This document shows, piece after piece, positions 2,477 through 29,951 of a DNA stretch of 64,000 nt. A model generated the notes under the pieces. The model made no database searches. It saw nothing but the letters and a program-made list of their open reading frames with translations, and was not told where the DNA came from. Both the position numbers and the translations under genes were made by a program. Every line of letters starts with the position of its first letter. Position 1 is the first letter of the stretch. The stretch comes from a virus, in IMG/VR virus record IMGVR_UViG_3300050821_002231, positions 1 through 64,000 of that record. One strand, 5' to 3'.

Positions 2477-4026
2477 TTCGTGGCATCACGGTGACAGAGG
2501 ACGGCACGCAAATTCAGCGCTTGGCAGTCAGCACGAAAATTGCAATAGGGCTGCCGCCTAATCCGGCAGAGGGAAAGAAAGCGCATCCGACAAAGCTGGA
2601 CCATTTCATTTTTCTACGTAAGTCCACTGTCGAGCAAAACAGGTGGGAGATTGATCCCGAGTTAACGAAACTCTTCGGCGCGAAGTGCAAGAGCGTGGAG
2701 ATCGTGTTGCTTGACGATGACGTTGAGAATGTGTTCCCAACGAAGTTGGCGTGGTTTACGCAGTCGGCTTGTAAGTGCTTCGGCAATGGGATCACTGCAA
2801 CCAGGCGCACTGAGAAACACCCCGAAGGCGAACCTTGGACGCCGTGCGGGCCATCCTGCCCAGACCTTGAGCGGGGCGACTGTCGGGCGAGCGGTGATTT
2901 GCGTTTCATGCTGGCGGCGATGCCAAAGCTGGGTTCTGTGGTCAGGATTCACACAAGTTCTATTCGCAGCATTCAACAAATATCCTCCAGTCTCCAGCAG
3001 ATTCAAACTCTGCTCGGGGGAAGATTGGCTGGCATTCGTTGCAATTTGGTTGTCAGGCCGGAAAAAACGAGTTTCATGGGAGAGGACCAGAAGCGTCATG
3101 CGACCACGATCCATGCCTTGAACTTAGAGATTCAGTCCGAAGGAATCCACGCTCTGATTAGCAAAATGACGGACCACGCACGCCTATTTGAGCAGACCAA
3201 GAAGCTTCTCGGTGGTGGGCGCATTGAAATAATTGAACCAGACGAGGAGCGGGCACCGGAAATCTCGGCCGAGTTCTATCCAGCGTCGGCTATAGCGCCA
3301 GCGGTCAAGTTCCCCGAGCCAGAGGAAGCGGAAGAAGTTATTCCAGCGCAGAAGCAGCCGAACATGGACGTAATGTGCCAAGAGTGCCGCCAAGTGAACG
3401 GACACAAGCCGGATTGCTTCTACGCGACACAACAGCCTGCTACCTCTGACCGTTCGACGAAGTGCGGCTCTTGTAATGCTCCTCCAAACAAACCCCATGC
3501 GACGACTTGCCCAGAGCGAAATAAGCCTTCTCCGGTCGCGGCGAAGCCCTCAGAACCGACAATTCCCGCTACACAGGAGACCGTACAGCCACAAACAGCC
3601 GCGTCAACCCCTCAGACTACCCCTCAAGCCACAGAAGAGGCTCCTGCGGGGCTACAAACGATGCCTTTGCAGGTTCTAGGCTTGGCTGTCAAAGAGAAGC
3701 CGATCAAAAAGAACGGGAAACTGACTGGCGAGAAGCAATCTTATCGTGTGCTCACCGTCCTTGACAGCGAAAACCTGCAATGGTCACTCTACGCATGGGA
3801 CACAAAACATTTTGAGTTCTTAGATCCGATTCCGGCAAAGACGAACTGCATTTTTCAGGTCAGCAAATCGAAGTCCGGTGACACGGTGTTCTACTCAATC
3901 GAGCACATCGTGGAAACGGGAGGGTTGAAGTTTGTTGACGACAAGCCAGTGATCGAGGGCGAAGTAGTAGAAGCGGAAGATGAGGATATGTCGCTATTTG
4001 ACGAGCCGACGCCGGAGGGAGAATAG
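2473..4026 (+). CDS. Recombination directionality factor-like (phiC31 gp3-like) protein with Cys/His zinc motifs and acidic tail
   Basis: KIAIG...PTKLDHF, C.G.G, C..C...C...G.L.F.L, HTSS..S motifs; AGGAG RBS at start 2473. Confidence 0.65.
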   Translation: MIRGITVTEDGTQIQRLAVSTKIAIGLPPNPAEGKKAHPTKLDHFIFLRKSTVEQNRWEIDPELTKLFGAKCKSVEIVLLDDDVENVFPTKLAWFTQSACKCFGNGITATRRTEKHPEGEPWTPCGPSCPDLERGDCRASGDLRFMLAAMPKLGSVVRIHTSSIRSIQQISSSLQQIQTLLGGRLAGIRCNLVVRPEKTSFMGEDQKRHATTIHALNLEIQSEGIHALISKMTDHARLFEQTKKLLGGGRIEIIEPDEERAPEISAEFYPASAIAPAVKFPEPEEAEEVIPAQKQPNMDVMCQECRQVNGHKPDCFYATQQPATSDRSTKCGSCNAPPNKPHATTCPERNKPSPVAAKPSEPTIPATQETVQPQTAASTPQTTPQATEEAPAGLQTMPLQVLGLAVKEKPIKKNGKLTGEKQSYRVLTVLDSENLQWSLYAWDTKHFEFLDPIPAKTNCIFQVSKSKSGDTVFYSIEHIVETGGLKFVDDKPVIEGEVVEAEDEDMSLFDEPTPEGE

Positions 4027-15680: not shown

Positions 15681-17626
15681 GGTACGCCCTTGCGTTGTTG
15701 CTGGCGAAAGGAACGCGATGAGTAACTTTGTGGCATTTACGCGACACGGCGTCTTGGAAATTCACGCTATCTCTGCGGATGGGGCGACAGATACCTTGTG
15801 CGGCTGCGACGGGAATGATTCGCATCAGCACGTAGGAACGTGCCCAGCAACGCTGCCCGACAATCCCAAAATTACCTGCAAGGAGTGCTACCAGATCGTT
15901 CGGCATTCCAGGCGTTACAAAAATTCAGACTTCAAGGTGACCCCATGAAACATGCATTGTTATCCGTGTTGCTGGCGGGGATGATCGGATGCGGGACTAT
16001 GCCGCACACGTTAACGCAGGACGATATTGAGGCCGCTGCGGCGGTGGGATATCTCTACGGGCAAACTGCCACGACGTTCGTTGTTGCTAAGTCTCAAAAT
16101 GCTGAGGCCGAGGAGAAGGCTCTATGTGTGTCTCTAAAGCAAGCTGACGCACTCAGCGCCGAAGCCCGCAAATATTGGGACGTGACTCGGCCCATGTCAA
16201 GAATGAACGATCTGACTGCATTGCGTGGATACTGCGCTGAGGTGAAGCCATGAAACCTTTTTACTTCCTATTCCTTTCTGTGGTAGTGGCGATGGGGCAG
16301 ACGCCGCTCGACACTCCGTTCGGCTTGACGATTACTGGAGGCAGGTCGGTTGCGGAGCAATGCACTCGGACGATCACATTCGGCAGCACGACCAAGACCA
16401 TCAAGGAGTTGTTCCCGGAAGAATGCGCTACGAAGGAGCATCCGTACAGTTCGTGCCACTGGATTTCAGGCTATGAACCGCAGTGTGAATGCCTACCGGT
16501 GGGCGCAACGAGCATCGTCTCCAGCGCGTCGGTTACGCCTATCCTGCCCGCTCCCAAGCTGGAGTCCGCAGAACCGCCGACGTGGCCAACAGCCGCCAAG
16601 ATAAGTTTTACTTTCATCGGGGACCAAGAGGGCGATCTGGTTGAGCCGGATGGCTGGTATCGTTGCTCAGACGGTAAAAGACTGGGCTGGTGTCCGCCGA
16701 AGCCCGAGACTGACTGGCAGGCCATCGCAGATCACTGCCACATCGAAACGCTGAATAACGGATTCTTAGGCGATTTAACTCCGCCGCCCAATGGAAGAGG
16801 TTGGGAAGCGATGACGGGAATGCGGATCGTGTGCAAGTGAGGAGATTATGAGCACAGAGAAAGATCGGCTTGAGCGTAACGGCTGGGTTCGTATCAGTTA
16901 CCGGAAGATGGGATGCATGAGAATCGCGCGATGGGAGGACCCGAAGAACGGTGACGTTATGTCGCAAGGTGCGGCAATCGAAACGCTCATCAGGCGAAAG
17001 TGGGCCGATAAAATACAGGCGGCGAGAGTGAAGTAATAAGCAGTGTGCGGGCTGGTCGAGAGATCGGCCCGCAAAGAAAGCAGGAGAGAGATGGCAACCT
17101 CAAAAGAAATTTCGGACGGACTGGATAAGGTGCAGCAGAAAATCACTGAGTTCAAAGAGGACGTTCTGGTACTTGTAAGGGCAGCGCAGCGGCTCAAAGA
17201 TGAAGGCCGGGGACATCTCGCAGTCGAATCTGCCATTAAAGACGTAGAACGCTGGTACTGAGGGAGCGTCTTGTCTCTCACGTAGTCAAGGAGGAAGAAG
17301 ATGGCCCAAACGTACTATGAAGTGCTGATTTTAGCATTAGCTTTATTCTCCGCATATTTGCTCACAATCGTGCGGCGGCACAAGCATAAGTGGAATGAGG
17401 CCGCGATGAAGCGAGGTCGAGCCAAGAAGCGACTCCGGCAAATTTGGCTTGAGGAGCACCCCGGATGCCTAAGTATCGAAGATGCTTTTCGCACGCCGGA
17501 CCCGTGGAAGTGGTTCAACATTTACGCCAACCTGCAAAACCGCGATGAGACCGTAGAGACTGGTAATGTATCAGTTTGAATTTTGCCACTATGGAGTCAC
17601 GGCGCGGCCTGTGGCATACTCGTTTC

Positions 17627-17848
17627 GTGACCAAACGTCCGCGCGATCCCGTCCAGCTTGCTAAGCAGGTATTCGACATTGCCATTGGTGAGGCCGAGGA
17701 CACGGTAAGCGAAATTAAGAAGCATCCCGAAAGCGTTAGGGGTCGGGCTGGCGGTAGAAAAGGCGGCAAAGCCCGCGCCAAAAAATTGAGTGCCGTTGAA
17801 CGTGCTGAGATCGCGCGATTGGCGGCTGAGGCCAGATGGAAAAAGTAG
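17627..17848 (+). CDS. Small basic KRPRD/GRKGG accessory protein of the IS1-like element
   Basis: KRPRDP.QLA...GRKGGKARA..L...R.EIA..AA.ARW; homolog at 28761-29036. Confidence 0.75.
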   Translation: MTKRPRDPVQLAKQVFDIAIGEAEDTVSEIKKHPESVRGRAGGRKGGKARAKKLSAVERAEIARLAAEARWKK

Positions 17849-17947
17849 GCCATGACCGCAAGTGCCTTGTTTCATGGGCACTCTGGAGTATCATGGCTGA
17901 TCTGGAGGACCGACCAGCCATGATTTTCACTCTCGCACATTCTGGAG

Positions 17948-18211
17948 TTAGTTTGCCTTTGCAGCATTCGCTTGCAACGTTCCCGGCGGTAACGGGAACG
18001 GCTGCAACATGCCAATCGTCTGTTGTAATTGAATGGTCCTCAGCGCCTGTCCTCGGAAATGCCAGCGGCAATTTTCAAACTTCACATTAGGCATCTCGAA
18101 ATCGCCGCCGGAATAAAACAGGTCGCAGTCCTTCAGTTCGCAATTGATGAAACAGCATTCTTCGACAACGAATACTGCCTTGGTTAGCGTCTTACCTTCG
18201 TACTTGGTCAT
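17948..18211 (-). CDS. Hypothetical cargo protein
   Basis: 87-aa ORF with beta-helix-like F.NC repeats. Confidence 0.5.
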   Translation of the reverse strand: MTKYEGKTLTKAVFVVEECCFINCELKDCDLFYSGGDFEMPNVKFENCRWHFRGQALRTIQLQQTIGMLQPFPLPPGTLQANAAKAN

Positions 18212-18313
18212 GTTTCACTGTTCTTCCTGTGGGCTTGCGTGCTCACTGTTGAATGGTGATTGAATCCTCTCGGCCTTGGTCTTATCCACCTTGGCCGAGA
18301 GGGGCTTTACCCA

Positions 18314-18472
18314 CTACGCTGCCAACAAGCCAACGACTAAGCTAGTGGCAGAGTGCTGGGTAATGTACTTAGCGACTGTTCGACAACTACCGGTACACTG
18401 GGAATTGCCGAGTAGGATCAGTCCAACTACCAGCCCGATTCCGGCCAGCAGAAGCACTTCGTTTTTGTTCAT
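18314..18472 (-). CDS. Small membrane peptide (52 aa)
   Basis: GGAG RBS; MNKNEVLLLAGIGLVVGLILLG...; below the ORF-track cutoff. Confidence 0.45.
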   Translation of the reverse strand: MNKNEVLLLAGIGLVVGLILLGNSQCTGSCRTVAKYITQHSATSLVVGLLAA

Positions 18473-18695
18473 CTTGTTTCTCCATCTCCGACCTTGCGAT
18501 CTGCAAATGGATTGTGGTTATCCTCGCGGCAGGTTAACCGCAAGGGGCTTTCCCATCTCCCGTTAGAGACGGGGAACTTTGCCACTTTACGATTGACTCA
18601 GGATCACAGCAGGACTACTCTGGGGCTGCTAGGTCATCCCAAGGGGCTGTAAAGTTTTGCCGAGAGCTACCGTGGCGCGGTGGCTCTTCGGCTTT

Positions 18696-19178
18696 TCAGC
18701 TTGCTTTTTCTCCCTCGTTAGGTGCGTTCAATCTCCACTCAACATCATCTGTCAAATCGAGCGGGAGCTTAATTGGGTCTTCGGTCGGGTGGATATTATT
18801 CCAGTGCATCGCATCCAGTGTAAGTTGCAGGCCATCACCGACCATTTGTTCTCGTCGCTGTACTAGCGACTTTAGCATCGGCTTTCGCGGCGCTTCGTCG
18901 ATGTCAACCCACAGCGTTAACTGTTTTGCACCGTAAGCGGTTGTGACCGCGTGATTCGCACGATACGGGTGTCCGGTCTTCTTGTCGTGTCGAATTTCTT
19001 CGCGCGCGGCCTCGGAAAATTCCTTGGCGAGTCTATCGAGTGCAGCGATTGGGCGTGGTAACGGCCAACCTTTGCCCACCGCAAACTGAGCTACTTCGTG
19101 CATGTTTACTTCTGTTTTCTGTGTCACATCTTTGTAATGACGGATGAGACGCTGCATTTCTTGATGCTTTGTTGCCAT
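18696..19178 (-). CDS. Hypothetical cargo protein co-transcribed with HTH-ImmA gene
   Basis: AGGAG RBS, 160-aa ORF starting 8 bp after the upstream stop. Confidence 0.7.
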   Translation of the reverse strand: MATKHQEMQRLIRHYKDVTQKTEVNMHEVAQFAVGKGWPLPRPIAALDRLAKEFSEAAREEIRHDKKTGHPYRANHAVTTAYGAKQLTLWVDIDEAPRKPMLKSLVQRREQMVGDGLQLTLDAMHWNNIHPTEDPIKLPLDLTDDVEWRLNAPNEGEKAS

Positions 19179-19186
19179 CACTTCTC

Positions 19187-20338
19187 CTATCCGACTGGAG
19201 CAACATCGCCCCAACCATCGACCAATGCACTCGGCGCGATGAAAGACCGAATCTTTACCAGATGATTGCGAAAACGATCATAGCGTTCAGTTCGGTGCTG
19301 CAATTGTCCGGCGACAAGTCCTGGATGGACCCGCATCGTGGCAGCAAAACCAAGGATGTCGCGCTCTGCGTAAAATGGGTCTTTCCGTGTGATGAAACGT
19401 TCCATTGCTTCCGCCGGAACACAAAACTCTTGCGCTGCTTCGTTCGCTACGCTCTCTTCTTCGGGAATATCTGGGCCAGTCCCCGCACGCTGTCCTTCAA
19501 GATTTACGTCGAGCATATCTCGCCCGCTCTCTCGACCGTGACGGCGCAGAATGTGTTCAATTTCGTGGCGAAGGACAAACCAGAAATTGTCTATGCGGTC
19601 GTAGCGTGTCGTTATACCGATCACTGGTTCTTTGGCCTTCAGCCAAAACGATACGCCATCAATTTTTGCTCCGCTTAATGATTCGACTATCACGAATCGA
19701 ATACCACTTTCGGCAAGGATGCGGGGCACTTTTCTAGCAAGTTCTGGAGCGGTTAGGAGATGGCTTAGTTGCGTGACCGCACCGCGCACAGCTTCATGCG
19801 AATACTTTCCAACAAGCATTTCCTTCGCAATCTCCCGAACTCGATGGAGCCATGCCAATTGGGGCAGTGTGGGAGGACTGAAAGCATCGGTTTTTTTGGC
19901 GCGATGTCCCAAGTCCTCAATGTCGTTTAGCGTGTTCGCCCCAAAAAAACGTTTGAGCGCGGCTTCTACTTGTGGAATGTCTCTGACATTTTCAACATCT
20001 GGCAACCAGCCCCGCTTCATCATCTCTGCAATAGGCAATTCTCCAAAGACATTGGCGCGGGTCGTTCGCTGTGGATCAGGTCGCACCATGATGCGCGCCT
20101 TGCGTAAGTCGAATCTGCGCTGAAGTTGGAGGAATTTTTCGGGACGCACCCCAAAAACCTCTCCGAGCAAAAGCGCCATAGGCGCTTCCACGGGCCTCTT
20201 GTCGGCGACCAAACGATTTATCCCGGTTTCATCCATGTCGAGTACAATAGCTAGCGTCCGTTGGCTCCAGCCCCGCTTCGCCAACAACGCCAGTATGTAC
20301 TGACCGGGGGTGGGATACTCTGACGGTATGATTGACAT
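19187..20338 (-). CDS. HigA-like Xre HTH fused to ImmA/IrrE Zn-metallopeptidase
   Basis: TPGQYI...GWSQ..LA HTH; KIDG, RYDRIDNFWFVLRHEIEH (HEXXH), E..AN..A. Confidence 0.85.
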   Translation of the reverse strand: MSIIPSEYPTPGQYILALLAKRGWSQRTLAIVLDMDETGINRLVADKRPVEAPMALLLGEVFGVRPEKFLQLQRRFDLRKARIMVRPDPQRTTRANVFGELPIAEMMKRGWLPDVENVRDIPQVEAALKRFFGANTLNDIEDLGHRAKKTDAFSPPTLPQLAWLHRVREIAKEMLVGKYSHEAVRGAVTQLSHLLTAPELARKVPRILAESGIRFVIVESLSGAKIDGVSFWLKAKEPVIGITTRYDRIDNFWFVLRHEIEHILRRHGRESGRDMLDVNLEGQRAGTGPDIPEEESVANEAAQEFCVPAEAMERFITRKDPFYAERDILGFAATMRVHPGLVAGQLQHRTERYDRFRNHLVKIRSFIAPSALVDGWGDVAPVG

Positions 20339-20449
20339 CTCCCCTACTGATAAACCAGTCGCGAAGAGTTGTCAACCTGCAATTTGCGCATTGTTGCAAA
20401 CTGAATTATATGCTTGACAAACTGTAATAGTTCATTTAGGCTGTTCTCC

Positions 20450-21331
20450 ATGAACCGCCTATCAGTTGCCGACCGAGCCAAGATTCTGGGAATGATGGTA
20501 GAAGGAAACAGCCTTCGTTCCTGTGCTCGCCTTGCCGATGTCTCCGTCATTACGGTAATGAAGCTGCTTGTTGATCTTGGCTTCGCCTGTGAGCAATTCC
20601 ACCATGAGCACGTCAAGAACGTCCGCGTGCGCCGTCTCCAGTGCGACGAAATTTGGTGCTTCGTGGGAGCCAAGGCGAAAAATGTTACGCCAGAGAAGAA
20701 AGCAGAGGGCTGGGGCGACGTATGGACATGGACAGGCTTAGATGCGGACACGAAACTTTGCGTGGGCTATTTAGTTGGCGGACGTGACGCGGATTGGGCA
20801 ATGGAGTTCATGCTGGATTGCGCGGCGAGAATCAAAGGCCGCGTACAGATAACGACTGACGGCCATAGAGCCTATCTGGAAGCGGTAGAAACTGCCTTTG
20901 GAGCGGATGTTGACTATGCACAGTTGCAGAAGATATACGGCGCACCTACCGATGCCGAGGTGCGCCGCTACAGCCCCGCCAAGTGCATCGGTTCTGATAT
21001 GAAAGTTGTTAGTGGCGACCCAGACCCCAAGCATGTGAGCACGTCCTACGTGGAACGCCACAACTTGACGATGCGAATGGGGATGCGCCGATTCACTCGG
21101 CTCACAAACGGCTTTAGTAAGAAGTTTGAGAATCATGCGGCGATGGTTGCTATTCACGCGGTCTATTACAATTTCGCACGTATCCACAAGACGCTGCGAA
21201 TCACTCCGAGCATGGCCGCTGGCCTGAGTGACCATGTTTGGAGCCTTGAGGAAATCGTAATGATGGCCGACAACTACATGCCTAAACCCGGCAAGCGCGG
21301 CCCTTACAAGAAAAGCGATTCAGCGGCTTAG
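20450..21331 (+). CDS. IS1-family DDE transposase
   Basis: N-terminal HTH; QCDEIW, ITTDG, STSYVERHNLTMR..RRFTRLTN.FSKK. Confidence 0.9.
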   Translation: MNRLSVADRAKILGMMVEGNSLRSCARLADVSVITVMKLLVDLGFACEQFHHEHVKNVRVRRLQCDEIWCFVGAKAKNVTPEKKAEGWGDVWTWTGLDADTKLCVGYLVGGRDADWAMEFMLDCAARIKGRVQITTDGHRAYLEAVETAFGADVDYAQLQKIYGAPTDAEVRRYSPAKCIGSDMKVVSGDPDPKHVSTSYVERHNLTMRMGMRRFTRLTNGFSKKFENHAAMVAIHAVYYNFARIHKTLRITPSMAAGLSDHVWSLEEIVMMADNYMPKPGKRGPYKKSDSAA

Positions 21332-21579
21332 CTGAGAATCGGTTTCCATCGTTTCAGCAATCTGCGATCTCCGGTTTTCCAGTCAGCCAATACAGGCGCA
21401 ATCTGGAAGCACGGCTGAAGATCAAGGGTAAGCGAAGTTTTGTCTTGAAACCGGATGTCAACGACGCGATATTCCGGGGAAAGGGACAGTTCTACATCGG
21501 CAATGATCTTGCCTTTGGTTTGCGGGAAGTTGAGAACTTTCCTTATTCGGCGGGAGCGGGTACTTTTATTAGCAGCCAT
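21328..21579 (-). CDS. MAANK accessory protein of the IS1-like element
   Basis: 83 aa; clear homolog at 29098-29364; conserved leader. Confidence 0.75.
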   Translation of the reverse strand: MAANKSTRSRRIRKVLNFPQTKGKIIADVELSLSPEYRVVDIRFQDKTSLTLDLQPCFQIAPVLADWKTGDRRLLKRWKPILS

Positions 21580-22911
21580 GTCGCCTCTTGTACAGGTGAT
21601 TTGGTTAGGGCCGCGTTCGTGGTCACACACGAGCGCGTCCCGTTGTCCGCTTATATCCTCACCCGGACTGGAAGGCAACGAAAATTGAACGGATATTCAA
21701 ACTGATACATTGCCTAGAGACTCTTGTGCTTGCATTCCGAGAAGCATTCGAGAGACGCGCCCGCGAAAAACATCAGCTAGAGGCCGTAATCGTTCGCCAA
21801 CGGGGAGAACTAAAGAAGCGGCTTAAAGAGATCGATGGACTAAAAGAACGACTTGGCGAGTTGGGCGGCTCCGCTCCTGCTGGGAAAGAGGAATAAGAAA
21901 TGGCTGAGCAGGTAAAACTATCGAAGATGCAGAGGGTCCGTAAGCGAGAATTGCGCAGGGCTAGCGATGCCCTTCACGAACAGCTAAAGACCGCGAAGGC
22001 AGCGTTCGGTAATCGACACAGCGTATTCGGTTTGCGCGTGGCGATTATGATTATTGGGGAGCTACGGAAGACGATTGATACTGAAATAGAGGCCGGAGGC
22101 TAGCCATGGATAATCCTACCGATCCGATGAAGCCGAGCGTTACCTTGCTGGTTAAGCTGGGCAGCATTGCAGTCCATGCTGATGAACTGACAGATAATAC
22201 ACAAAACGCGGTTCGTGGGCACATGGAAGACGCGGCTACTATTAAGAATTTACTGTCTGATCCTGAAGTTTTTGCCTGGATGCATAAAATGCGCATGATG
22301 GCATTCCTTCCGGTGAAACGATGACTGACCCTACCCTGAAGAAACTGAAGGAGCTGGCGGCGTGTGAAGCACATACAACTTATCGTGGAGGAACTTGCTG
22401 CTACTGCAAAGCGAATATGAGGCGCATCGAGGCCGCTTACACCCTTGGCCTGTCGCAGGGATACGAGAAAGCGGCAAGGATTTGCGAAGCGGCGGAGAAT
22501 TGTTCGTCGGCAATGGTTAAATTGGCTGGATATGATTGTCATGTTCAGGATGCGGCGGCTATCAGGAAGGCAGTGAACAATGGCGACTGAACTGGAAAAA
22601 CTGGCAAAGGAAATGGTAGATGTGGGCTATTGCAATTACGCGGCTTGCCTGACATTTCTGCAACGCGCAAAAGCACTGGGCTATCAGGAGGAGCATCTCA
22701 AGCGGGAAGAAAAGGAAGCTCTGGTTTGCCCAGAAGGTGTAGGATTTGTGGAATACATCGGAGTTCTGAAAAAGCAAATCGAGCGTACGAGGGCTCTGGG
22801 ACACGAGGAAGCGGCGGAGGCGATTGAGAATGGCTCTTATGCGACGATTCCGGGTCGATATCGTAATGAAGCTGCGGCGGCGATTCGGGCGCTGTCCAAG
22901 GGTTCCGACTA

Positions 22912-24042
22912 ATGCTGAGAAGTTTTGAGTTGCGATTGAAGCCGAAGGCCGCACAGAGAGCGGCAATGGCAGTCATTCTAGCGGATTCCTGTGAGACGTA
23001 TAATGCTGCCTTGCAAGAACGCCGGGATGCATGGAAGTTGCAGCAAAAACACATTACCTACTTCGACCAATGCGCTGAATTAACGGAACTTCGCAAAGGC
23101 GAGTGTTTTACTGCGGTCGCCTTGGATATTCAGCGAGAACCGCTTCGTCGGGTGGAGCGCGCGTTCAAAGCTTTCTTCCGGCGAACGAGGGACGGACAGA
23201 CGCCTGGGTATCCGCGTTTTCGTTCATGTAGCCGATACGATTCTTTTGCATGGCACAAAGTGCGGTTTGCGGATGACGGATTGCGCGTGCCGAATCTGGG
23301 ATGCATCCGCTTTAAGGCTAATCGGATGCCGACAGGTATTACGAAGATGGCTACTATCGTTCGCGTCGGGGACAAGTGGATAGCTCGAATTGTCTGCGAC
23401 ATTGGCCCAGCGCCAGAAAAGCGCGTCGTAGGTATAGCTATTGGCATCGACGTGGGCTTAACTACGCTAGCCACGCTATCTGACGGCACGGAGATTGCGA
23501 ATCCTCGCTGGACGAAGCGACACGAAGATCGCGTTGCTGCCGCAAATCAGAGGTTAGCGCGAACCAACAGAAATTCCAACAACAGACGCCGAGCAATTGC
23601 AGCCCTGTCCAGCGCTCACCGATGCGCCATGAATGCTCGGAAAAACTATCTGCATCATGTATCCAAATGGCTTGTGTCGAACTATGATTTAATTGCGCAC
23701 GAGTCCCTAAGCATCAAAGGGATGTCACAAAGTCATTTCGCCAAATCAATCTTAGATGCCGCATGGGGAATCCTCATCTGGCAACTCACGTACAAAGCTG
23801 AAAAGGCTGGTGTTTGGGTTGTCCCGGTAAATCCACGCGGTACAAGTCAGAAGTGCTCCGGTTGCGGTGAAATTGTTGTCAAGAAGCTATCCCAGCGAAT
23901 GCATAACTGCCCGTACTGCGGCTTAGTTCTTGGACGAGATCACAACGCAGCCGTAAATGTTCTCGCGCTCGGGATGAGCGCTGCGGGGATAGCCCCTCAC
24001 AACGTGCATAGTCGCATGAGTCCCTTGTCCAAGGAGGGCTGA
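22912..24042 (+). CDS. tnpB: TnpB RNA-guided endonuclease (IS200/IS605 OrfB), no TnpA
   Basis: YN.AL.ER, GYPRFR, GIDVG (RuvC-I), HESL (II), CSGC..CPYC zinc finger, RDHNAA (III). Confidence 0.92.
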   Translation: MLRSFELRLKPKAAQRAAMAVILADSCETYNAALQERRDAWKLQQKHITYFDQCAELTELRKGECFTAVALDIQREPLRRVERAFKAFFRRTRDGQTPGYPRFRSCSRYDSFAWHKVRFADDGLRVPNLGCIRFKANRMPTGITKMATIVRVGDKWIARIVCDIGPAPEKRVVGIAIGIDVGLTTLATLSDGTEIANPRWTKRHEDRVAAANQRLARTNRNSNNRRRAIAALSSAHRCAMNARKNYLHHVSKWLVSNYDLIAHESLSIKGMSQSHFAKSILDAAWGILIWQLTYKAEKAGVWVVPVNPRGTSQKCSGCGEIVVKKLSQRMHNCPYCGLVLGRDHNAAVNVLALGMSAAGIAPHNVHSRMSPLSKEG

Positions 24043-25870
24043 GCGATCCGGCCTGAGCGTGGAACGGAAGGAGAGGGGAAAAGCATGGATATGCGAGACC
24101 CAGATCAATGCAGTGAGCGCATTCGCGACCTAGGAGGGATCGGCCATGAGCGCCATTGTAAGCGCAAGGCTACCGTGGAAACGAGAGGCAGAAAATATTG
24201 CCGCTGGCATGATCCTGAACAGGTAGAACGTAGACGAGCCGGAAAGGAGAAGCAACCGCAATGAGCGACACACGCGAACAATTTGCTAGCGATTTGCAAC
24301 TTATGAAGCATCGAGCGATGAACCTGGGCCTGTACGCGACCGGGCAGAGGCTCGACTACCCTATACGCATGGCTGGCTTCGAGATGGCAGGGAATACCGA
24401 GGCATGTCTGAAGTACGAAGCGTCTCTTTCCGAGGCCGAGCGATGAGCAAAGTGAAGTCCAGTGGGAAGGCGGAATGTCCCTACGTCGGCAAAATGATTG
24501 CTTCTATCGAACAAAGCTATGATGGCTGTCAGTTGCATGACACCATTATAACTTTCACGGACGGCACGTACCTGAGCTTAATGAACGTTATCCATCCCGA
24601 GGTAGAAGTACGATTCGTTTACGGCGAAAAGGATGATGAGCAGATGAAGTTAATGCTGCCTAGGATTCGATGACCACTCCCGTAAAGCGATGCCCCAACG
24701 TTTGGCTGTGTGAAGTCAAGACTCGCGTGCAACTATTGCCAAAGACTGCGAATCGATGGCGCTATGAATGGCTGCCGATTCTAGGAACTGCCGCTGAATC
24801 GCGTGAGATCGGGCGCGGCCATCTCGAAACGCAGCAGAAATGCTGGACGCATGTAAGGCTGAGAAAGTACGTGAGGAGCCGATGACGACTGAGACCGTAA
24901 AGCGATGCCCGAAGTGCGGCGGACAGGTAAAGTTGCTTGGCAGAAAGCCGCTGGGCTTAACCTTTCACGCAGATTGTGAACGTTGCAAAGATGTGTTTAC
25001 CGAGGCCGAGTTCAACGCCCTGCCTGAGTGGGGAGAAAAGGAGGTGCCAACTCAATGAACGCCATACCGCAACGCTGTACGTGCAACGACTTTTGGGATA
25101 GTTCGACTGTAAAGCCCCCATATCCTACGCATCAGCCAACGGTAGGTTCGACGCCGCAGCCATAGGTCATCCGTACTGGCTGGGCGATTCAAAGTCCGGG
25201 TGAAGAAAGAGGAGAATACGAATGAGTGAGTGGAAGTGGTTCGTAGTTCATAAGTCTGACAATGATTGTTGGATTGTATCGGAACCGTTCAACAACAACG
25301 GAGCGGCCTTCAACGAAGCGAAGAGGCTAGCGGCAACTTTTCCCGGTGTCGATTTCTTCGTTACGGAATCGACTCACATAGCTGTGTGCAACCCGGTAAC
25401 GTTCAGGTCGATCAATAAGTGAGTCCGGGTGAAGAAAGGAGCAAACGAGTTGCGTAAGTCACAAGAGTTAACCAATCCGAGCAGTTGCATGTCTCGGGCT
25501 AAGGATGACGAGATGACATTCGTCCTACTAGGCCGTGACGCGGCGGCTCCTGCAACAATTCGATGGTGGGCGCAAGAGCGTGTGCGTATGGGCAAGAACA
25601 CTTGGAAAGACGCGCAGATTATGGAGGCAATGCAGTGCGCGGCTACTATGGAGTTGGAGACGAAGAAGCGAAGGGTGAGTGATGCCTGGGTAATGGACCA
25701 GTTTCAATTTCCACAGGTCCACAGCGGGGCGACCTCAGCCCAGACCGGGCTAGTGTAGGATGGTGGGCCGTAGGCCACTCCCTTGGTTTCGCCACAAGCC
25801 AGTTCTGCGCTTATTGCCACCTCGTCGGGAAATACTTGGGGGTAGACGGCCTATAAGAAAGCCGAAGGCT

Positions 25871-26665
25871 ATGACCGTCTGCATCGCCGCAATCACTCTT
25901 AATAGTGAAATCGTGACCGTTTCAGACACGATGATACATGGCCTCATGTCGTCTGCCGATAAGATTGCGGTGAAGATGAACACCCTAGCTAAGGACTGGA
26001 GCGTGATGTGGGCAGCAGATGACATCACGCAATGTATCCCGATTATTCAGCGGGCGGAGAAATACTTTACGAACAGAGAGAACACATTACAAGTTGCGCG
26101 GTCCTGTCTGAGGCGTGCGTATCAACAGCATCTATCCGATTTCAGAGCAGACCACATATTGGGCGGGTTTGGTATGGATATGCGCATCTTCCTTAACACA
26201 AAAGCTAGTCGGTTTAGCGAGACAGAATCGGAAACCTTAATGTCTCGAATGGAACAAATAAGAGGCGACTGGGAATTTTTGGCGTTTGGGTTCGACGCTA
26301 AAAAGGAGCCGCATTTGTTCACCGTGCTTGAGCCGGGGGTAGATTGTACCTACGACAGTCCTGGATTTTGCTCGATTGGATCGGGCAAGTATGCGGCTGA
26401 CAGCTTGCTGTTCCAGCTTGAACAGAGTCGTGATTGCACATTAGAAAAGACGCTAGTCAATCTTTTGTTCGCGAAGTTTATGGCGGAAAAAGCCGGGGCT
26501 GGGAAACACACGTTCATATGGGCCGGAAAATACGGATCGACAATGTGCTCAATGTCGCCAGAACTGGAGCCGACAGCGAGGCACGTATGGGAGGATCAAG
26601 TCAGTCCCAAAGTTACAGATCAGATGGTGAATGAGATTTGCAAAAAACCGATAAGACTAACTTAG
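25871..26665 (+). CDS. Proteasome beta-subunit-like Ntn hydrolase (cargo)
   Basis: M-T-VCIAA start (Thr1 nucleophile), SD at about residue 17-18, Lys at about 33, SIGSG motif. Confidence 0.7.
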   Translation: MTVCIAAITLNSEIVTVSDTMIHGLMSSADKIAVKMNTLAKDWSVMWAADDITQCIPIIQRAEKYFTNRENTLQVARSCLRRAYQQHLSDFRADHILGGFGMDMRIFLNTKASRFSETESETLMSRMEQIRGDWEFLAFGFDAKKEPHLFTVLEPGVDCTYDSPGFCSIGSGKYAADSLLFQLEQSRDCTLEKTLVNLLFAKFMAEKAGAGKHTFIWAGKYGSTMCSMSPELEPTARHVWEDQVSPKVTDQMVNEICKKPIRLT

Positions 26666-27543
26666 TCGCCTAGCGCCTTGCGTATCATCTCGATGCCAAT
26701 CGTAGAAGCCTTAACAGTCGGTTTCGGCAGAATCGCGCACAGCTCCTCAACACTCCAAACATGGTCCGATAATCCGCTTTCCATTGCTGGCGTGACTTTC
26801 AACGTCTGGTGAATCCGGCAGAAGTTATAGAACATGTAGTGCAGAGCTACAGAGTGCGCGTGGTTTTCTACTTTTTTGCTGAAAGCATTTGTGAGGCGAG
26901 TAAAGCGGCGCATGTGCATCCGCATGGTCAAGTTTTGGCGCTCAACAAAACTGGTGCTCACATGCTTGGGGTCTGGGTCACCACTTACAACCTTCATGTC
27001 ACAGCCGATGCACTTCGCCGGGGAATAGCGCGTCTCGCCCTCACTCGAAGCGCCGTAAATCTTCTGCAATTGCGCGTAATCAATATCGGCACCAAAGGCA
27101 GTTTCAACGGCCTCTAGGTAAGAGCGATGTCCGTCCGTCGTGATCTGTACTCGATTGCTAATTCGGTTGGCGCAATCCAACATGAACTCTGTGGCCCATC
27201 CCGCATCCCGTCCGCCTACCAGATACGAAACGACTAACTTTGTGTCTGCGTCGATTCCTACCCAAGTCCAAACATCGCCCCAGCCCTCTTGCTTCTTTTC
27301 GACGCTGGCATTCTTTGCCTTCGCTCCAACGAACTGCCAAATCTCATCGGCCTGTAGGCGGCGCACTTTCAAGTTGCGGACGTAGCGGTCATGGTAGGCG
27401 GCGCACGCGGTTCCCAGATCGGCCAGCAGTTTAACGATTGTGGTCTTGGAAACTCCGGTCATGCGAACTGTGGCGCGAACGGAGCAGCCTTCGATCAAGC
27501 AGCTAACCACTTTGGCGCGGGTCGCATTGTCTAGGCAATTCAT
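26662..27543 (-). CDS. IS1-family DDE transposase
   Basis: QADEIW, ITTDG, STSFVERQN; paralog of 20450-21331. Confidence 0.9.
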   Translation of the reverse strand: MNCLDNATRAKVVSCLIEGCSVRATVRMTGVSKTTIVKLLADLGTACAAYHDRYVRNLKVRRLQADEIWQFVGAKAKNASVEKKQEGWGDVWTWVGIDADTKLVVSYLVGGRDAGWATEFMLDCANRISNRVQITTDGHRSYLEAVETAFGADIDYAQLQKIYGASSEGETRYSPAKCIGCDMKVVSGDPDPKHVSTSFVERQNLTMRMHMRRFTRLTNAFSKKVENHAHSVALHYMFYNFCRIHQTLKVTPAMESGLSDHVWSVEELCAILPKPTVKASTIGIEMIRKALGD

Positions 27544-27770
27544 ACTTACTCTTATACGACAGCCGCTTTAGCATGTCAACAAAATAGTGCGGGAAGGTGC
27601 ATAGAATCTGTGGATTTCTCACTTCTATGGAATAGAGTCGCGTCAATTGCGTTGAACTCCGTTAAAACGGGCTTCATGCCGACCACAACATATAGTGGTT
27701 TGACCAGCGCTTTACAAAATAAAAATATATTTCATGTCTTTTCATGGAGTTACGCGGAAAGGGCGCGAGA

Positions 27771-28238
27771 TCAGTCAGTCCACCATTCGTCATCCCGCCC
27801 CGTTTGAATCCCAACACCCCCAAGCGTCTGGCCCGCCTTGTCTATCGCCGGATGTCCGCGTTCGCAAGAAATACCGTGGAACATTGCCTGAGCGATTACG
27901 GAAATTGTTCTGGAGGACTGTATTGGGTAGGTTTCCACGACTGCATGGAATCGCAGTCGAGATTCGCAGCCTTCCGTGGCGCAGCGAGTTTCAATCCAAA
28001 CTACATCAACGTCGCTTGTCTCTGGTCCTTGGACCTGATTCCGAAATATCTCCCACTGGACATGTGGTGCGGTGTAGACGTACACATGCCCGCATCGCAG
28101 ACACAGAAAATTTCGAGTCCATCTGTCCGAAGGCCACCTGTTTTGAGATGTGGGTTTTCCTTCAAGGGTGGGAAGCGGGAGAGCGATACGCTCTTCGCAA
28201 TTCTGACACGCGAGAAATGGAAGCCGGGACTCAGGCAT
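27771..28238 (-). CDS. Cys-rich hypothetical cargo protein
   Basis: CxxC pairs; strand choice uncertain. Confidence 0.4.
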   Translation of the reverse strand: MPESRLPFLACQNCEERIALPLPTLEGKPTSQNRWPSDRWTRNFLCLRCGHVYVYTAPHVQWEIFRNQVQGPETSDVDVVWIETRCATEGCESRLRFHAVVETYPIQSSRTISVIAQAMFHGISCERGHPAIDKAGQTLGGVGIQTGRDDEWWTD

Positions 28239-28296
28239 AAAATACGGCCTGAATTATACTCTGCTGTGCGACAACTCCCGCCTTGCCAGAAGGGAA

Positions 28297-28764
28297 ATGA
28301 TGCCACGCCGCGCCCTTATCGCTTGTGCCGTTGCGTTCTCTGCTATCTGCTTAGGACAGAATCCAGGTTCGCTATCCCCGCAATTCAAGGCACAGGCGGC
28401 GCGGGCCTTCCACGCGATTCAGCGGCTTGACCCAGATGACCGGGAGTTCCAATCCCAGCCCGCGCACCGGGCGGTAAACGGCTTAGTTGACGCAATCAAG
28501 ACACCCACGGATAGGTATGTTTCCGATGTGCTACTTACTTGGCTGGCGGAAATGGAAGAGGGCAGAGTCGAAGCAAAGAACCATCCTGCTTCGTGGCGGC
28601 AATGGATGAAGGCTGAGGCTGAATGTGAGGCAGAGGCGGAGTTCTATTTCGGCGGACTCATAGAGGAAGCGAAGCCGCGAATCGCCGAGAAGATCGCGCA
28701 CAAGACGTGCCTTGATACGGCGAAGGAATTGAAACTGGTAGTCCCGCGCTCAAGTCCGAACTAA
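28297..28764 (+). CDS. Secreted hypothetical cargo protein
   Basis: Signal-peptide-like N-terminus. Confidence 0.55.
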   Translation: MMPRRALIACAVAFSAICLGQNPGSLSPQFKAQAARAFHAIQRLDPDDREFQSQPAHRAVNGLVDAIKTPTDRYVSDVLLTWLAEMEEGRVEAKNHPASWRQWMKAEAECEAEAEFYFGGLIEEAKPRIAEKIAHKTCLDTAKELKLVVPRSSPN

Positions 28765-29036
28765 CCCTTGGCCTTTTTCCATCGGGCTTTAGCCGCTTTA
28801 ACAGCGATCTTGGATCGCTCCGCTTTGGTCATGGTCTTGAGACGGCGCTTTCCGCCGATCTGACCGCCTTTGCGCCCGATGGCTGACATGTACTCAGAAA
28901 TGCTCTGAGGCGCGGCGCTTGTGGCAGGCTTGGGAACTTCCGGCTCTGGCGGGGGAATCTGTCCCGTGGAAACGGCAACCGTCCACGCGGCGAGTTGATT
29001 CGGGTCACGCGGACGTTTGCCCTTGCCGATGGTCAC
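28761..29036 (-). CDS. Small basic KRPRD/GRKGG accessory protein
   Basis: KRPRDPNQLA...IGRKGGQIGGK.R...R..IA..AA.ARW. Confidence 0.75.
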   Translation of the reverse strand: MTIGKGKRPRDPNQLAAWTVAVSTGQIPPPEPEVPKPATSAAPQSISEYMSAIGRKGGQIGGKRRLKTMTKAERSKIAVKAAKARWKKAKG

Positions 29037-29097
29037 GGAACCATCATGCCACGGAGTCATGGGTGACGGGAAGCCCTTTAGCGGATTCATATTTTCA

Positions 29098-29364
29098 TCA
29101 CGTCCGAGACGATTTGCTGTGAACGGGCTTCCATCGTTTGAGCATTCTGTAATTGCCAGTGCTCCAGTTCGCCAATTCAGGCATGACCATCACGCATGGC
29201 TCAATAGCGAAGGTGAGCGCGGTTTTGTCCTGAAAGCGTATGTCCACAACGTAGTAATCCGGGGAAGCCGATAGTTCCACGGCAGCAACGATCTTGCCTT
29301 TGGCTTGCGGAAACCTGAGAACTTCCCTTCTTCGACGGGAGCGGGTAACTTTATTGGCAGCCAT
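29098..29364 (-). CDS. MAANK accessory protein
   Basis: Homolog of 21328-21579 (FPQ.KGKI.A.VELS.SP.Y.VVDIRFQDKT.LT). Confidence 0.75.
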   Translation of the reverse strand: MAANKVTRSRRRREVLRFPQAKGKIVAAVELSASPDYYVVDIRFQDKTALTFAIEPCVMVMPELANWSTGNYRMLKRWKPVHSKSSRT

Positions 29365-29951
29365 GATCGCCTCTAGTACAGGTGATTTTGGTGAGGGGCG
29401 CGTTCGTGTTGATAGCACGGGCGCGTCCCGTTACCCTTATAACCTAGAAAGACTGCACTCTATGTGTGGAAATTGAAACTGGTCCATTACCATGTGTGGA
29501 AATTGAAACTGGTCCATTACCGTGGGTTGCGATTTGCGAACCACCATTTATCAGACTCAAGGAGAAACTGTTCCATGACTCATTCCGCGGGTACAGGTAT
29601 TTCGATATTCAACAATTCCGATCAAGTCCAGAAGCCCATATCGCTCTCTGAGTTGCAGAAGATCGTGAATCAGTTCGATAAGATGGAGTCAGTTGATGAT
29701 GTGCTATGGATGAGTAAGGCGACCTGCGAATCGTTGCTTGAGCAGATCGGCGCTAAACCATCCGAGCCGCTGATTCCTGGCGAAGAATATTTAACGCTGT
29801 ATGCTCTGGAAGGTGTTCAAATCCATCTTGATGAAAGTCTGCCGTTCCGAGCGGTGGAGAGCGGCACCTATCAAATGGACCCACGTGTTTCACTCGCGGC
29901 CCCGGCGCGATTCGCGTTAGCGAAGAAGATCGTGCGCCATCGCTACACGAT

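What the first reader, a model, noticed from the sequence alone, without database searches (positions are those of the whole stretch)
17562..29521. Two diverged IS1-like cargo transposons share a conserved two-gene accessory kit
Seen: elements 17562-21714 and 25689-29521 have different TIR interiors, gene order and cargo. Both carry a small basic KRPRD...GRKGG...ARW protein and a MAANK...FPQxKGKI...DIRFQDKT protein reading inward from the right end. Classical IS1 has no such genes. Inference: a family of compound elements with dedicated regulatory or addiction genes and exchangeable cargo.
Basis: partly seen in the sequence, partly recalled or inferred. Interest (0 to 1): 0.72.

Follow-up and report, generated by a model that had tools for sequence, protein, structure and literature searches.

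The report
IS1 cargo transposons with antisense-controlled gene
Two jumping genes of the IS1 family sit in a 103-kb soil phage genome; each carries a small basic gene that travels with the transposase and a separate, swappable cassette whose small protein gene is covered by an antisense RNA resembling E. coli's SymR antitoxin RNA.

Summary
Elements 17562-21714 and 25689-29521 are IS1-family cargo transposons in a complete 103-kb phage of soil Acidobacteriota. Element A has 20-bp inverted ends and an 8-bp target duplication, and it splits a phage gene.

Both accessory genes are real and linked to such transposons elsewhere, but they are two different things, not one fixed kit.

- **KRPRD, the small basic gene.** It starts just inside the transposon end, upstream of the transposase. 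It is found with 26 of 36 close transposase relatives against 1 of 24 distant ones, and it co-diverges with the transposase. It sits where InsA sits in IS1, so it is probably a regulator or cofactor. That role is inferred.
- **MAANK, an ~85-aa all-beta protein of no known family.** It is a portable cassette at the ends of IS1 and IS1595 elements, shuffled independently of the transposase. A ~75-nt RNA on the opposite strand covers its ribosome site and start codon. The RNA matches Rfam SymR, and a model built from it finds E. coli symR. MAANK is not SymE.

The two genes lie in tandem in nine soil contigs, but mostly occur apart. Toxicity and any role in transposition are untested.

The parts
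17554..17561 (.). Target-site duplication TAGAGACT, left copy (element A)
   Evidence: The same 8 bp lies at 21715-21722.
17562..17581 (+). Left inverted end of element A, GGTAATGTATCAGTTTGAAT
   Evidence: (I14): 19/20 complementary to 21695-21714.
17576..17848 (+). KRPRD small basic protein gene of element A (ORF from TTG 17576; likely ATG at 17591)
   Evidence: It is 48% identical to the copy in element B and starts inside or next to the inverted end.
17948..18211 (-). Cargo gene, 87 aa, function unknown
   Evidence: phrog_26297, E 5e-10.
18696..19214 (-). Cargo gene, 172 aa, overlaps the end of the HTH-peptidase gene
   Evidence: Homologues lie beside the same peptidase gene in L137 and L139. 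No family hit.
19187..20338 (-). Cargo gene, 383 aa, Xre-type HTH fused to an M78 (ImmA/IrrE) peptidase; resembles PD-lambda-2 component B
   Evidence: Peptidase_M78, HTH_3. (PADLOC PD-Lambda-2_B, E 1.5e-42). System described in PMC9519451.
20414..21331 (+). IS1-family transposase of element A (single ORF, 305 aa)
   Evidence: DDE_Tnp_IS1, 27.8 bits against 24.1. (71% identical to the element B copy).
21328..21582 (-). MAANK gene of element A (84 aa from ATG 21582), convergent with the transposase
21571..21646 (+). SymR-like antisense RNA across the MAANK_A start codon, ribosome site and leader
   Evidence: RF01809, 43.1 bits, E 1.7e-5. (model R1, 81.1 bits).
21695..21714 (-). Right inverted end of element A
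   Evidence: I14.
21715..21722 (.). Target-site duplication TAGAGACT, right copy
   Evidence: Removing 17562-21722 in silico restores one 144-aa phage ORF (17301-17561 joined to 21723-21896).
25689..25715 (+). Left inverted end of element B (27 nt)
   Evidence: (I4, I5): 100% complementary to both right-end copies.
25760..26665 (+). Proteasome-beta/Ntn-hydrolase-like gene (301-aa ORF), convergent with the transposase
   Evidence: Proteasome, E 0.0012, below cut-off. A proteasome-like gene holds the same position in L061-L064 and L066.
26662..27543 (-). IS1-family transposase of element B (293 aa)
   Evidence: It is 92% identical to a copy in genome G128.
27771..28238 (-). Cargo gene, 155 aa, function unknown
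   Evidence: Homologues lie inside elements L011, L066 and L085.
28297..28764 (+). Cargo gene, 155 aa, function unknown
   Evidence: no family hit.
28761..29090 (-). KRPRD gene of element B (family start MTIGKGKRPRD, probably GTG at 29036)
29098..29367 (-). MAANK gene of element B (89 aa from ATG 29367), 7 nt upstream of the KRPRD ORF
29356..29434 (+). SymR-like antisense RNA across the MAANK_B start codon, ribosome site and leader
   Evidence: RF01809, 52.3 bits, model positions 1-77. (R1, 84.2 bits). (structure).
29436..29441 (-). Conserved TATAAG, likely -10 box of the MAANK mRNA promoter
   Evidence: TATAAG/TATAAC is conserved just upstream of the hairpin in most of 24 loci. Reading it as a promoter is an inference.
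29462..29521 (-). Right inverted end of element B, a 30-bp unit present twice in tandem (29462-29491 and 29492-29521)
   Evidence: D2, I4, I5.

Best explanation
The region holds two diverged single-transposase IS1-family cargo transposons (transporter IS) that landed in a complete 103-kb phage genome of soil Acidobacteriota. Their two shared small genes are separate modules.

(1) KRPRD is a ~90-aa basic, helical protein. Its gene begins within about 5-70 bp of the transposon tip, upstream of and on the same strand as the transposase. It belongs to the window's transposase clade and co-diverges with the transposase. It holds the position that InsA holds in IS1. I infer that it is a nucleic-acid-binding regulator or cofactor of transposition.

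(2) MAANK is a self-contained cassette. It has its own promoter, a ~65-nt leader, an ~85-aa all-beta protein with a basic N-terminal tail, and a ~75-nt two-hairpin RNA transcribed from the opposite strand. That RNA starts about 9 nt inside the ORF and runs outward across the start codon, the ribosome site and the whole leader. It is SymR-like in sequence, structure and geometry. I infer that it blocks MAANK translation by pairing, as SymR does for symE.

The cassette is shuffled among IS1 and IS1595 elements. It is most likely a type-I-toxin-antitoxin-like addiction or dosage-limited module riding on the transposons, not a part of the transposition machinery.

Shown here: the element boundaries, the linkages, the RNA structure with its strand bias, and the reciprocal SymR similarity. 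Inferred: expression of the RNA, translational repression, MAANK toxicity, and KRPRD's role.
For: Elements.
- Inverted ends, the target duplication, and an in-silico excision that restores a 144-aa phage ORF.
- IS1 transposase domains.
- Relatives have GGTAGTG... ends and 8-9-bp duplications.

KRPRD.
- In 151 genomes of one order, 26 of 36 transposases at >=56% identity have KRPRD within 4 kb. It is always upstream, and 23 of 26 are on the same strand. For more distant transposases the figure is 1 of 24. Without the unpublished genomes the figures are 25/35 and 0/22.
- All 9 best KRPRD loci fetched have the transposase beside them, as do 5 other viral contigs.
- KRPRD identity tracks transposase identity: rho 0.46, Mantel p 0.012, n=16.
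- The model is helical and basic.

MAANK RNA.
- Rfam SymR hits on the strand opposite MAANK in both elements: 52.3 and 43.1 bits, full model length.
- A model built only from these sequences finds the annotated E. coli symR exactly: 38.4 bits, E 5e-8.
- 96% of pair cells are standard, with 8 compensatory pairs and 0 of 500 shuffles as good.
- 114 G.U cells make the fold 97% paired on the antisense strand against 75% on the sense strand. Mean free energy is -42 against -27 kcal/mol.
- TAnnnT sits at the -10 position in 24 of 24 loci. It includes a third-codon T that stays fixed while the amino acid varies.
- 74 of 80 independent soil loci have the RNA over the start codon.

Cassette behaviour.
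- MAANK identity does not track transposase identity (rho 0.07, n=40), and the gene lies either convergent or in tandem with the transposase.
- It also rides on IS1595 elements.
- Distant homologues with the RNA occur as ~0.7-kb units in one genome.
Against: - No RNA data exist, so neither the antisense RNA nor MAANK is shown to be expressed.
- The Rfam scores are below SymR's gathering score (52.3 and 43.1 against 61).
- MAANK shows no similarity to SymE or to any solved fold, and it is not hydrophobic like most type I toxins. Toxicity is therefore a guess by analogy.
- The same leader also weakly matches the IncQ R1162 antisense family and PtaRNA1. From memory, the IncQ RNA controls replication genes, not a toxin, so a SymR-like RNA does not by itself imply a toxin.
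- MAANK almost always lies at a transposon end. Of 36 loci with enough flank, 25 have an IS1 transposase, and at least three of the nine with none carry an IS1595 transposase. A role in transposition is therefore not excluded.
- KRPRD has no similarity to InsA and no recognised DNA-binding domain. 10 of 36 close transposases had no KRPRD detected.
Confidence: 0.6

Rival explanations
1. MAANK and KRPRD form one dedicated two-gene unit, for example a toxin with a protein antitoxin or a regulator pair, that the transposons need or carry together.
For: Both genes are in both window elements. In nine soil contigs they lie head to tail at the element end, with gaps of about 10-25 nt or a 4-nt overlap, ahead of the transposase: L095, L096, L097, L126, L128, L131, L137, L139, L155. 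Element B has the same layout.
Against: Most copies of each gene lack the other. No MAANK was found in 9 genome elements and 5 viral elements that carry KRPRD. KRPRD was found in only 10 of 80 MAANK loci and in none of the five genomes richest in MAANK. In element A the two genes sit at opposite ends on opposite strands. MAANK already has its own RNA partner. The two genes show opposite patterns of co-divergence with the transposase.
Confidence: 0.12
2. The MAANK leader and its antisense RNA act like RNA-IN and RNA-OUT of IS10. They would be an end-located antisense brake on transposition (multicopy inhibition), with MAANK as the first gene of the transposase operon or as a transposition cofactor.
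For: The cassette lies at the transposon end in nearly all loci, and the antisense RNA points outward as RNA-OUT does (IS10 geometry from memory). In the tandem form, MAANK, KRPRD and the transposase are on one strand. A multicopy genome (G001) has MAANK beside all six full-length transposase copies.
Against: In 24 of 40 elements MAANK is convergent with the transposase, so the two cannot share a transcript. MAANK does not co-diverge with the transposase (rho 0.07). It serves two transposase families. Most IS1-clade transposases lack it: MAANK was found in 3 of 151 genomes against transposase in 52. The distant RNA-bearing homologues in G075 lie far from the IS1-clade transposase hits in that genome.
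Confidence: 0.2
3. The accessory genes are ordinary passenger or phage genes that happen to lie inside two insertions and have no special tie to the transposons.
For: Transporter IS carry many unrelated passengers. The other cargo differs between elements.
Against: Both genes recur at fixed positions beside the inverted ends in dozens of independent elements with different flanks. In genomes of 4-6 Mb, chance co-location within 4 kb would be about 0.1-0.3% by my own estimate.
Confidence: 0.03

Closest known systems
IS1 family insertion sequences, single-ORF (ISMhu11-like) members, and transporter IS (tIS)
   Same: The transposases match the IS1 DDE domain. The ~20-27-bp inverted ends begin GGTAATG or GGTAGTG, and target duplications are 8-9 bp. 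A small gene reads inward from one end ahead of the transposase. Passenger genes lie inside one pair of ends, as defined for tIS (PMC9330008).
   Different: There is no insA/insB' pair joined by a frameshift. The small upstream gene (KRPRD) has no zinc finger or InsA-like HTH and matches no family. Elements reach 2.3-4.9 kb with defence-like cargo. Many carry a proteasome-like gene and/or the MAANK cassette.
symE/SymR type I toxin-antitoxin locus of E. coli (Rfam RF01809)
   Same: Both have a ~75-77-nt antisense RNA with two hairpins. It starts a few nt inside the ORF (6 nt in E. coli, about 9 nt here) and covers the start codon and ribosome site (PMC4147584). The covariance-model hits are reciprocal. 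The regulated protein is about 85-113 aa and not hydrophobic.
   Different: The protein is not SymE: no PF08845 hit, hhalign probability 0.1%, and an all-beta fold with no match. The hosts are Acidobacteriota and their phage, not enterobacteria. The cassette sits at transposon ends. Rfam scores are below the gathering score. SOS control and toxicity were not examined.
RNA-OUT/RNA-IN antisense control of IS10 (Tn10)
   Same: An antisense RNA is encoded at the end of an insertion sequence. It points outward and pairs with the 5' end and start codon of an inward-reading gene (from memory).
   Different: The regulated gene here is MAANK, not the transposase. It is often convergent with the transposase. 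The RNA is SymR-like, not RNA-OUT-like.
PtaRNA1 (RF01811) and the R1162/IncQ antisense RNA (RF00043)
   Same: Both families give weak matches at the same ~75 nt: 18.8 and 28.7 bits. This hints at a wider class of antisense cassettes over a hairpin, CCUAACCA, ribosome site and AUGGCU leader.
   Different: Both scores are far below the gathering scores. No IncQ record was available to test with my own model.
PD-lambda-2 anti-phage system (cargo of element A only)
   Same: The 383-aa Xre-HTH-peptidase protein matches component B at E 1.5e-42. In E. coli that component is toxic alone (PMC9519451).
   Different: Components A (HigB-like) and C were not recognised here. Only a 172-aa partner of unknown family follows the gene.

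Membership tests
IS1 family (insertion sequences) | Transposase with the IS1-type DDE domain | tested here: met
   Pfam DDE_Tnp_IS1 scores 27.8 and 36.5 bits against a cut-off of 24.1. The NCBIfam equivalog transpos_IS1 scores only 55.5 bits against a cut-off of 100, so these are distant members.
IS1 family (insertion sequences) | Terminal inverted repeats of about 20-30 bp beginning GGT(A/G)ATG (from memory of IS1) | tested here: met
   the window has GGTAATG/GGCAATG ends, and relatives have GGTAGTG ends.
IS1 family (insertion sequences) | Target-site duplication of 8-9 bp | tested here: met
   Element A has 8 bp. Relatives have 8-9 bp in L011, L019, L020, L024, L028, L029, L061, L063, L066 and L067. 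Element B has none.
IS1 family (insertion sequences) | insA and insB' joined by a -1 frameshift (classical IS1) | tested here: not met
   The transposase is a single uninterrupted ORF of 293 or 305 aa. From memory, this fits the single-ORF subgroup, not classical IS1.
Transporter IS (tIS) | One transposase and one pair of inverted ends enclosing passenger genes | tested here: met
   Definition from PMC9330008.
symE/SymR type I toxin-antitoxin | Antisense RNA belonging to Rfam RF01809 | tested here: inconclusive
   Scores are 52.3 and 43.1 bits, below the gathering score of 61, but with E 1e-7 and 2e-5 over the full model. The reciprocal hit of my model on E. coli symR scores 38.4 bits, E 5e-8.
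symE/SymR type I toxin-antitoxin | The RNA overlaps the ribosome site and start codon from the opposite strand | tested here: met
   E. coli geometry.
symE/SymR type I toxin-antitoxin | The protein is a SymE (PF08845, AbrB-like) homologue | tested here: not met
   No PF08845 match in the whole phage genome at E<=1. hhalign of the 72-sequence MAANK profile against E. coli SymE gives probability 0.1%. No Pfam hit.
symE/SymR type I toxin-antitoxin | The protein is toxic when over-made, and the RNA rescues | not testable with these tools
   This needs an expression experiment.
IS1 InsA-type regulator (for KRPRD) | Small gene at the transposon end, upstream of the transposase and on the same strand | tested here: met
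IS1 InsA-type regulator (for KRPRD) | Zinc finger plus HTH of InsA, or any sequence similarity to it | tested here: not met
   The protein has no cysteines and no Pfam or NCBIfam hit. KRPRD may work like InsA but is not a member of that family.

The most novel reading that the evidence does not exclude
MAANK with its antisense RNA is a new type I toxin-antitoxin family that acts as a built-in addiction module at the ends of IS1 and IS1595 transposons, stabilising whatever replicon (here a phage) the transposon lands in. In addition, SymR, PtaRNA1, the IncQ copy-control RNA and this RNA are one ancient antisense cassette that has been moved in front of unrelated genes across phyla.
Probability: 0.3. 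Interest if true: 0.75.

Novelty: new variant of a known kind. Interest (0 to 1): 0.6.

Why it matters
Insertion sequences are usually thought to carry only what they need to move. Here a widespread soil family of IS1-type elements has a modular backbone with four recurring parts:
- a transposase-linked small basic gene;
- a proteasome-like gene;
- a swappable gene controlled by an antisense RNA;
- a slot for defence-like cargo.

Two such elements have entered a phage.

The antisense RNA extends the SymR type of control from enterobacteria to Acidobacteriota and attaches it to a new protein family. That gives a concrete, testable candidate for a new RNA-controlled toxin or regulator. It also raises the question of whether transposons use such cassettes to make themselves hard to lose.

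Tried and rejected
Context came from the search for related loci, the genome search and the fetch from genomes instead.
- MAANK relatives in viral contigs: none found.
- blastn of the leader against E. coli genomes and plasmids: no match. Only covariance models see the similarity.
- MAANK fold (pLDDT 81.8): Foldseek best E 0.37 and VIA-align best Z 3.3, so no fold was assigned.
- Protein atlas: only unnamed clusters for MAANK, and an automatic 'histone H1' label for a neighbour of KRPRD.
- SymE homology was rejected.
- PADLOC, PHROGs and NCBIfam gave nothing for MAANK or KRPRD, apart from a short weak PHROG motif hit for KRPRD.
- Complex prediction of KRPRD with the transposase: no verdict.
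- No RNA holder was listed among public runs. Laying contigs of two soil runs showed no empty-site joint.
- Empty-site pattern for element A in viral contigs: no match.
- The IncQ plasmid record NC_001740 was not in the collection, so the IncQ comparison rests on weak Rfam hits only.
- hhalign of the 301-aa protein of element B against the proteasome-like proteins of relatives: probability 2%. Their equivalence rests on position and on separate weak proteasome hits.
- I found no target duplication for element B with either copy of its right end.

Full report
**What is there.** The window is the first 64 kb of a 102,896-bp IMG/VR virus record with direct terminal repeats, rated complete. Protein relatives come from Terriglobales, Sulfotelmatobacter and Angelobacter genomes, so the host is a soil member of the Acidobacteriota.

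Element A (17562-21714) has 20-nt inverted ends matching 19/20, flanked by the 8-bp repeat TAGAGACT. Removing the element and one repeat copy in silico joins 17301-17561 to 21723-21896 as one 144-aa ORF. This is therefore a true transposition into a phage gene.

Element B (25689-29521) has perfect 27-nt ends. Its right end is a 30-bp unit present twice in tandem, and I found no target duplication.

Each element encodes one uninterrupted IS1-family transposase. The two are 71% identical.

**Gene content.**
- Element A: KRPRD (+), then three leftward cargo genes (87 aa, 172 aa, 383 aa), then the transposase (+), then MAANK (-).
- The 383-aa protein is an Xre-HTH fused to an M78 peptidase. It matches PADLOC PD-Lambda-2_B at E 1.5e-42. 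In E. coli that component is toxic alone and is part of a three-gene abortive-infection system (PMC9519451).
- Element B: a proteasome-like gene (+), then the transposase (-), a 155-aa gene (-), a 155-aa gene (+), KRPRD (-) and MAANK (-).
- The whole phage genome has exactly two copies of each of the three shared genes.

**KRPRD travels with the transposase.**
- The family is large, with more than 868 clusters, and highly conserved.
- In 151 genomes sampled from the order of one host genome, 43 genomes have a match, usually one per genome.
- I fetched 16 kb around the nine best matches. All nine have a transposase 65-92% identical to the window's just downstream on the same strand, and none has MAANK.
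- The elements could be delimited: ends beginning GGTAGTGG..., lengths 1.5-4.9 kb, several with 8-bp duplications.
- From coordinates alone, 26 of 36 transposase copies at >=56% identity have KRPRD within 4 kb. It is always upstream, and 23 of 26 are on the same strand. For more distant copies the figure is 1 of 24.
- These tallies include the unpublished genomes G014, G024 and G032. Without them they are 25/35 and 0/22.
- Five further IMG/VR contigs carry KRPRD with the transposase.
- KRPRD identity rises with transposase identity: rho 0.46, Mantel p 0.012, 16 elements.
- In six of seven delimited relatives the longest ORF starts 5-68 nt from the tip.
- The AlphaFold model is helical with modest confidence, pLDDT 67. 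No family matches.
- This is the position of insA in IS1, but the protein has no InsA features. The regulator role is an inference from position and co-divergence.

**A third backbone gene.** In L061-L064 and L066, a ~320-aa gene lies at the end away from KRPRD, convergent with the transposase. A profile of four of these proteins hits proteasome alpha and beta subunits in the PDB at E 3e-7. Two of them touch Pfam Proteasome. The 301-aa gene of element B holds the same position and also weakly hits Proteasome. Direct profile comparison between it and the others is not significant.

The backbone of the window's clade is therefore: end, KRPRD, cargo slot, transposase, proteasome-like gene (reversed), end. 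Contigs from a second soil run show a close variant of element B that lacks this gene and sits in a different flank.

**MAANK is a different kind of module.**
- The close family is small, with 22 clusters. A profile search finds 471 cluster representatives.
- Substitutions fall 30/19/51% on codon positions 1/2/3, so the gene codes for protein.
- The model is confident (pLDDT 81.8) and all-beta with a basic N-terminal tail. It matches no solved fold and no Pfam family.
- Of 24 loci in species-representative genomes, 12 have an IS1 transposase within 1.5 kb. Delimited elements have 8-9-bp duplications.
- In one 6.4-Mb genome, all six full-length transposase copies have MAANK beside them.
- Of 80 soil-metagenome loci, 36 have at least 2.5 kb downstream. 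Of these, 25 have an IS1 transposase.
- Nine loci with no IS1 transposase have enough flank on both sides. At least three of them (L145, L156, L157), as well as genome locus L011, carry an IS1595-family transposase instead.
- MAANK is rare among IS1-clade elements overall: 3 of 151 genomes, against 52 with the transposase.
- Its identity does not follow transposase identity: rho 0.07 over 40 elements. Element A's MAANK is 80-85% identical to copies that ride with transposases only 41-51% identical to its own. The gene lies convergent with the transposase in 24 elements and in tandem in 16.
- MAANK is therefore a cassette exchanged between elements.

**Do the two genes form a kit?**
- No KRPRD was found in the five genomes richest in MAANK.
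- None of the 14 KRPRD elements from genomes and viral contigs has MAANK.
- Nine soil contigs do have MAANK followed directly by KRPRD and then the transposase, as in element B.
- Three of those nine (L126, L137, L139) also carry homologues of element A's HTH-peptidase gene. L137 and L139 also carry its 172-aa partner.
- The pairing is therefore a recurrent sub-type, not a rule.

**The antisense RNA.** The ~75 nt across the MAANK start codon are conserved in all loci.

- Rfam finds SymR (RF01809) on the strand opposite MAANK at 29359-29432 (52.3 bits) and at 21574-21644 (43.1 bits). Both hits cover the full model but fall below the gathering score of 61. PtaRNA1 matches weakly on the same strand, and the R1162 family matches weakly on the MAANK strand.
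- In an alignment of 24 loci, the consensus fold has two hairpins. 96.3% of cells are standard pairs, 8 pairs show compensatory changes, no shuffle of 500 does as well, and slid controls reach at most 45%.
- 114 cells are G.U pairs, which become mismatches on the other strand. The fold is 96.9% paired on the antisense strand against 75% on the MAANK strand. Mean free energy is -42.4 against -26.8 kcal/mol. The selected structure therefore belongs to the antisense transcript.
- A covariance model built only from these sequences finds distant MAANK homologues not used to build it. It also finds 74 of 80 soil loci, always over the start codon on the opposite strand.
- The same model finds the annotated symR of E. 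coli K-12 almost to the base: 3833-3914 against the annotated 3836-3912, 38.4 bits, E 5e-8.
- A TAnnnT box lies 7-13 nt upstream of the predicted RNA start in 24 of 24 loci. It includes a third-codon T that stays fixed while the encoded residue varies (V, T, A, R). That is what an internal promoter would impose.
- On the MAANK strand, a conserved TATAAG sits just before the first hairpin. The RNA would therefore be complementary to the whole leader.
- SymR is reported to block symE translation in this geometry (PMC4147584).

**What the RNA does not tell us.** MAANK is not SymE. The weak matches to the IncQ and PtaRNA1 families suggest that this kind of RNA may front different genes, not all of them toxins. 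No RNA data were available. Expression, repression and toxicity therefore remain inferences.

**Verdict.** Cargo in relatives includes a dCTP-deaminase-like gene, a histidine-kinase-type ATPase, DUF3800 and DUF2513.

The 'two-gene kit' is really two independent modules: a transposase-linked gene in the InsA position, and a shuffled SymR-like antisense cassette with a new protein. I class it as a new variant of known kinds (transporter IS; symE/SymR-like type I loci). My tests agree with that note and add the strand assignment and the reciprocal SymR match.

Noticed in passing
window 29462-29521: The right inverted end of element B is a 30-bp unit (27-nt end plus ATG) repeated exactly twice in tandem, and the element has no target duplication. 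Possibly a trace of an aborted or end-to-end transposition event.
   Followed up: partly
window 25760-26665; L061:5977-6951, L063:5158-6168, L064:3441-4388, L066:10101-11057: A proteasome-beta-like (Ntn hydrolase) gene recurs at the end of these IS1 elements opposite KRPRD, convergent with the transposase. A profile of four copies hits proteasome subunits at E 3e-7.
   Followed up: partly
window 18696-20338; L126, L137, L139: Element A's cargo is an Xre-HTH-M78 peptidase matching PD-lambda-2 component B (E 1.5e-42), followed by a 172-aa partner. The peptidase gene recurs in three soil elements, and the partner in two of them (L137, L139). A HigB-like component A was not recognised.
   Followed up: partly
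L011:7883-11005; L145, L156, L157: The MAANK cassette also sits at the end of IS1595-family elements. L011 has an 8-bp duplication CTGATTTG and carries DUF3800 and a homologue of element B's 155-aa gene.
   Followed up: partly
L013:8787-10727, L016:8817-10544, L019:8758-10413: In one sub-clade the IS1 transposase is the C-terminal half of a 551-646-aa ORF. The ~300-aa N-terminal part matches no family.
   Followed up: no
L072-L075 (one genome, G075): Distant MAANK homologues with an extra ~50-aa N-terminus and the same antisense RNA occur several times in one genome. The shared unit between copies is only ~0.7 kb, with no shared transposase.
   Followed up: partly
window 29357-29432: Three Rfam antisense families (SymR, PtaRNA1, R1162/IncQ) all match the same ~75 nt. 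This hints that they belong to one wider class, which Rfam does not group in a clan.
   Followed up: partly
L029:797-5046: A 4.25-kb MAANK-bearing IS1 element (duplication CCTTTTCT) carries a dCTP-deaminase-like gene and a histidine-kinase-type ATPase with DUF4325. This looks like defence cargo.
   Followed up: no
window 25717/26666 (contigs of soil run X2): In a second soil metagenome, a ~90-95% identical variant of element B joins the left end directly to the transposase 3' end, so it lacks the proteasome-like gene. It lies in a different flank.
   Followed up: no
window 22912-24042: An IS605-type TnpB gene (OrfB_IS605 plus the Cas12f-like TNB domain) lies between the two IS1 elements.
   Followed up: no
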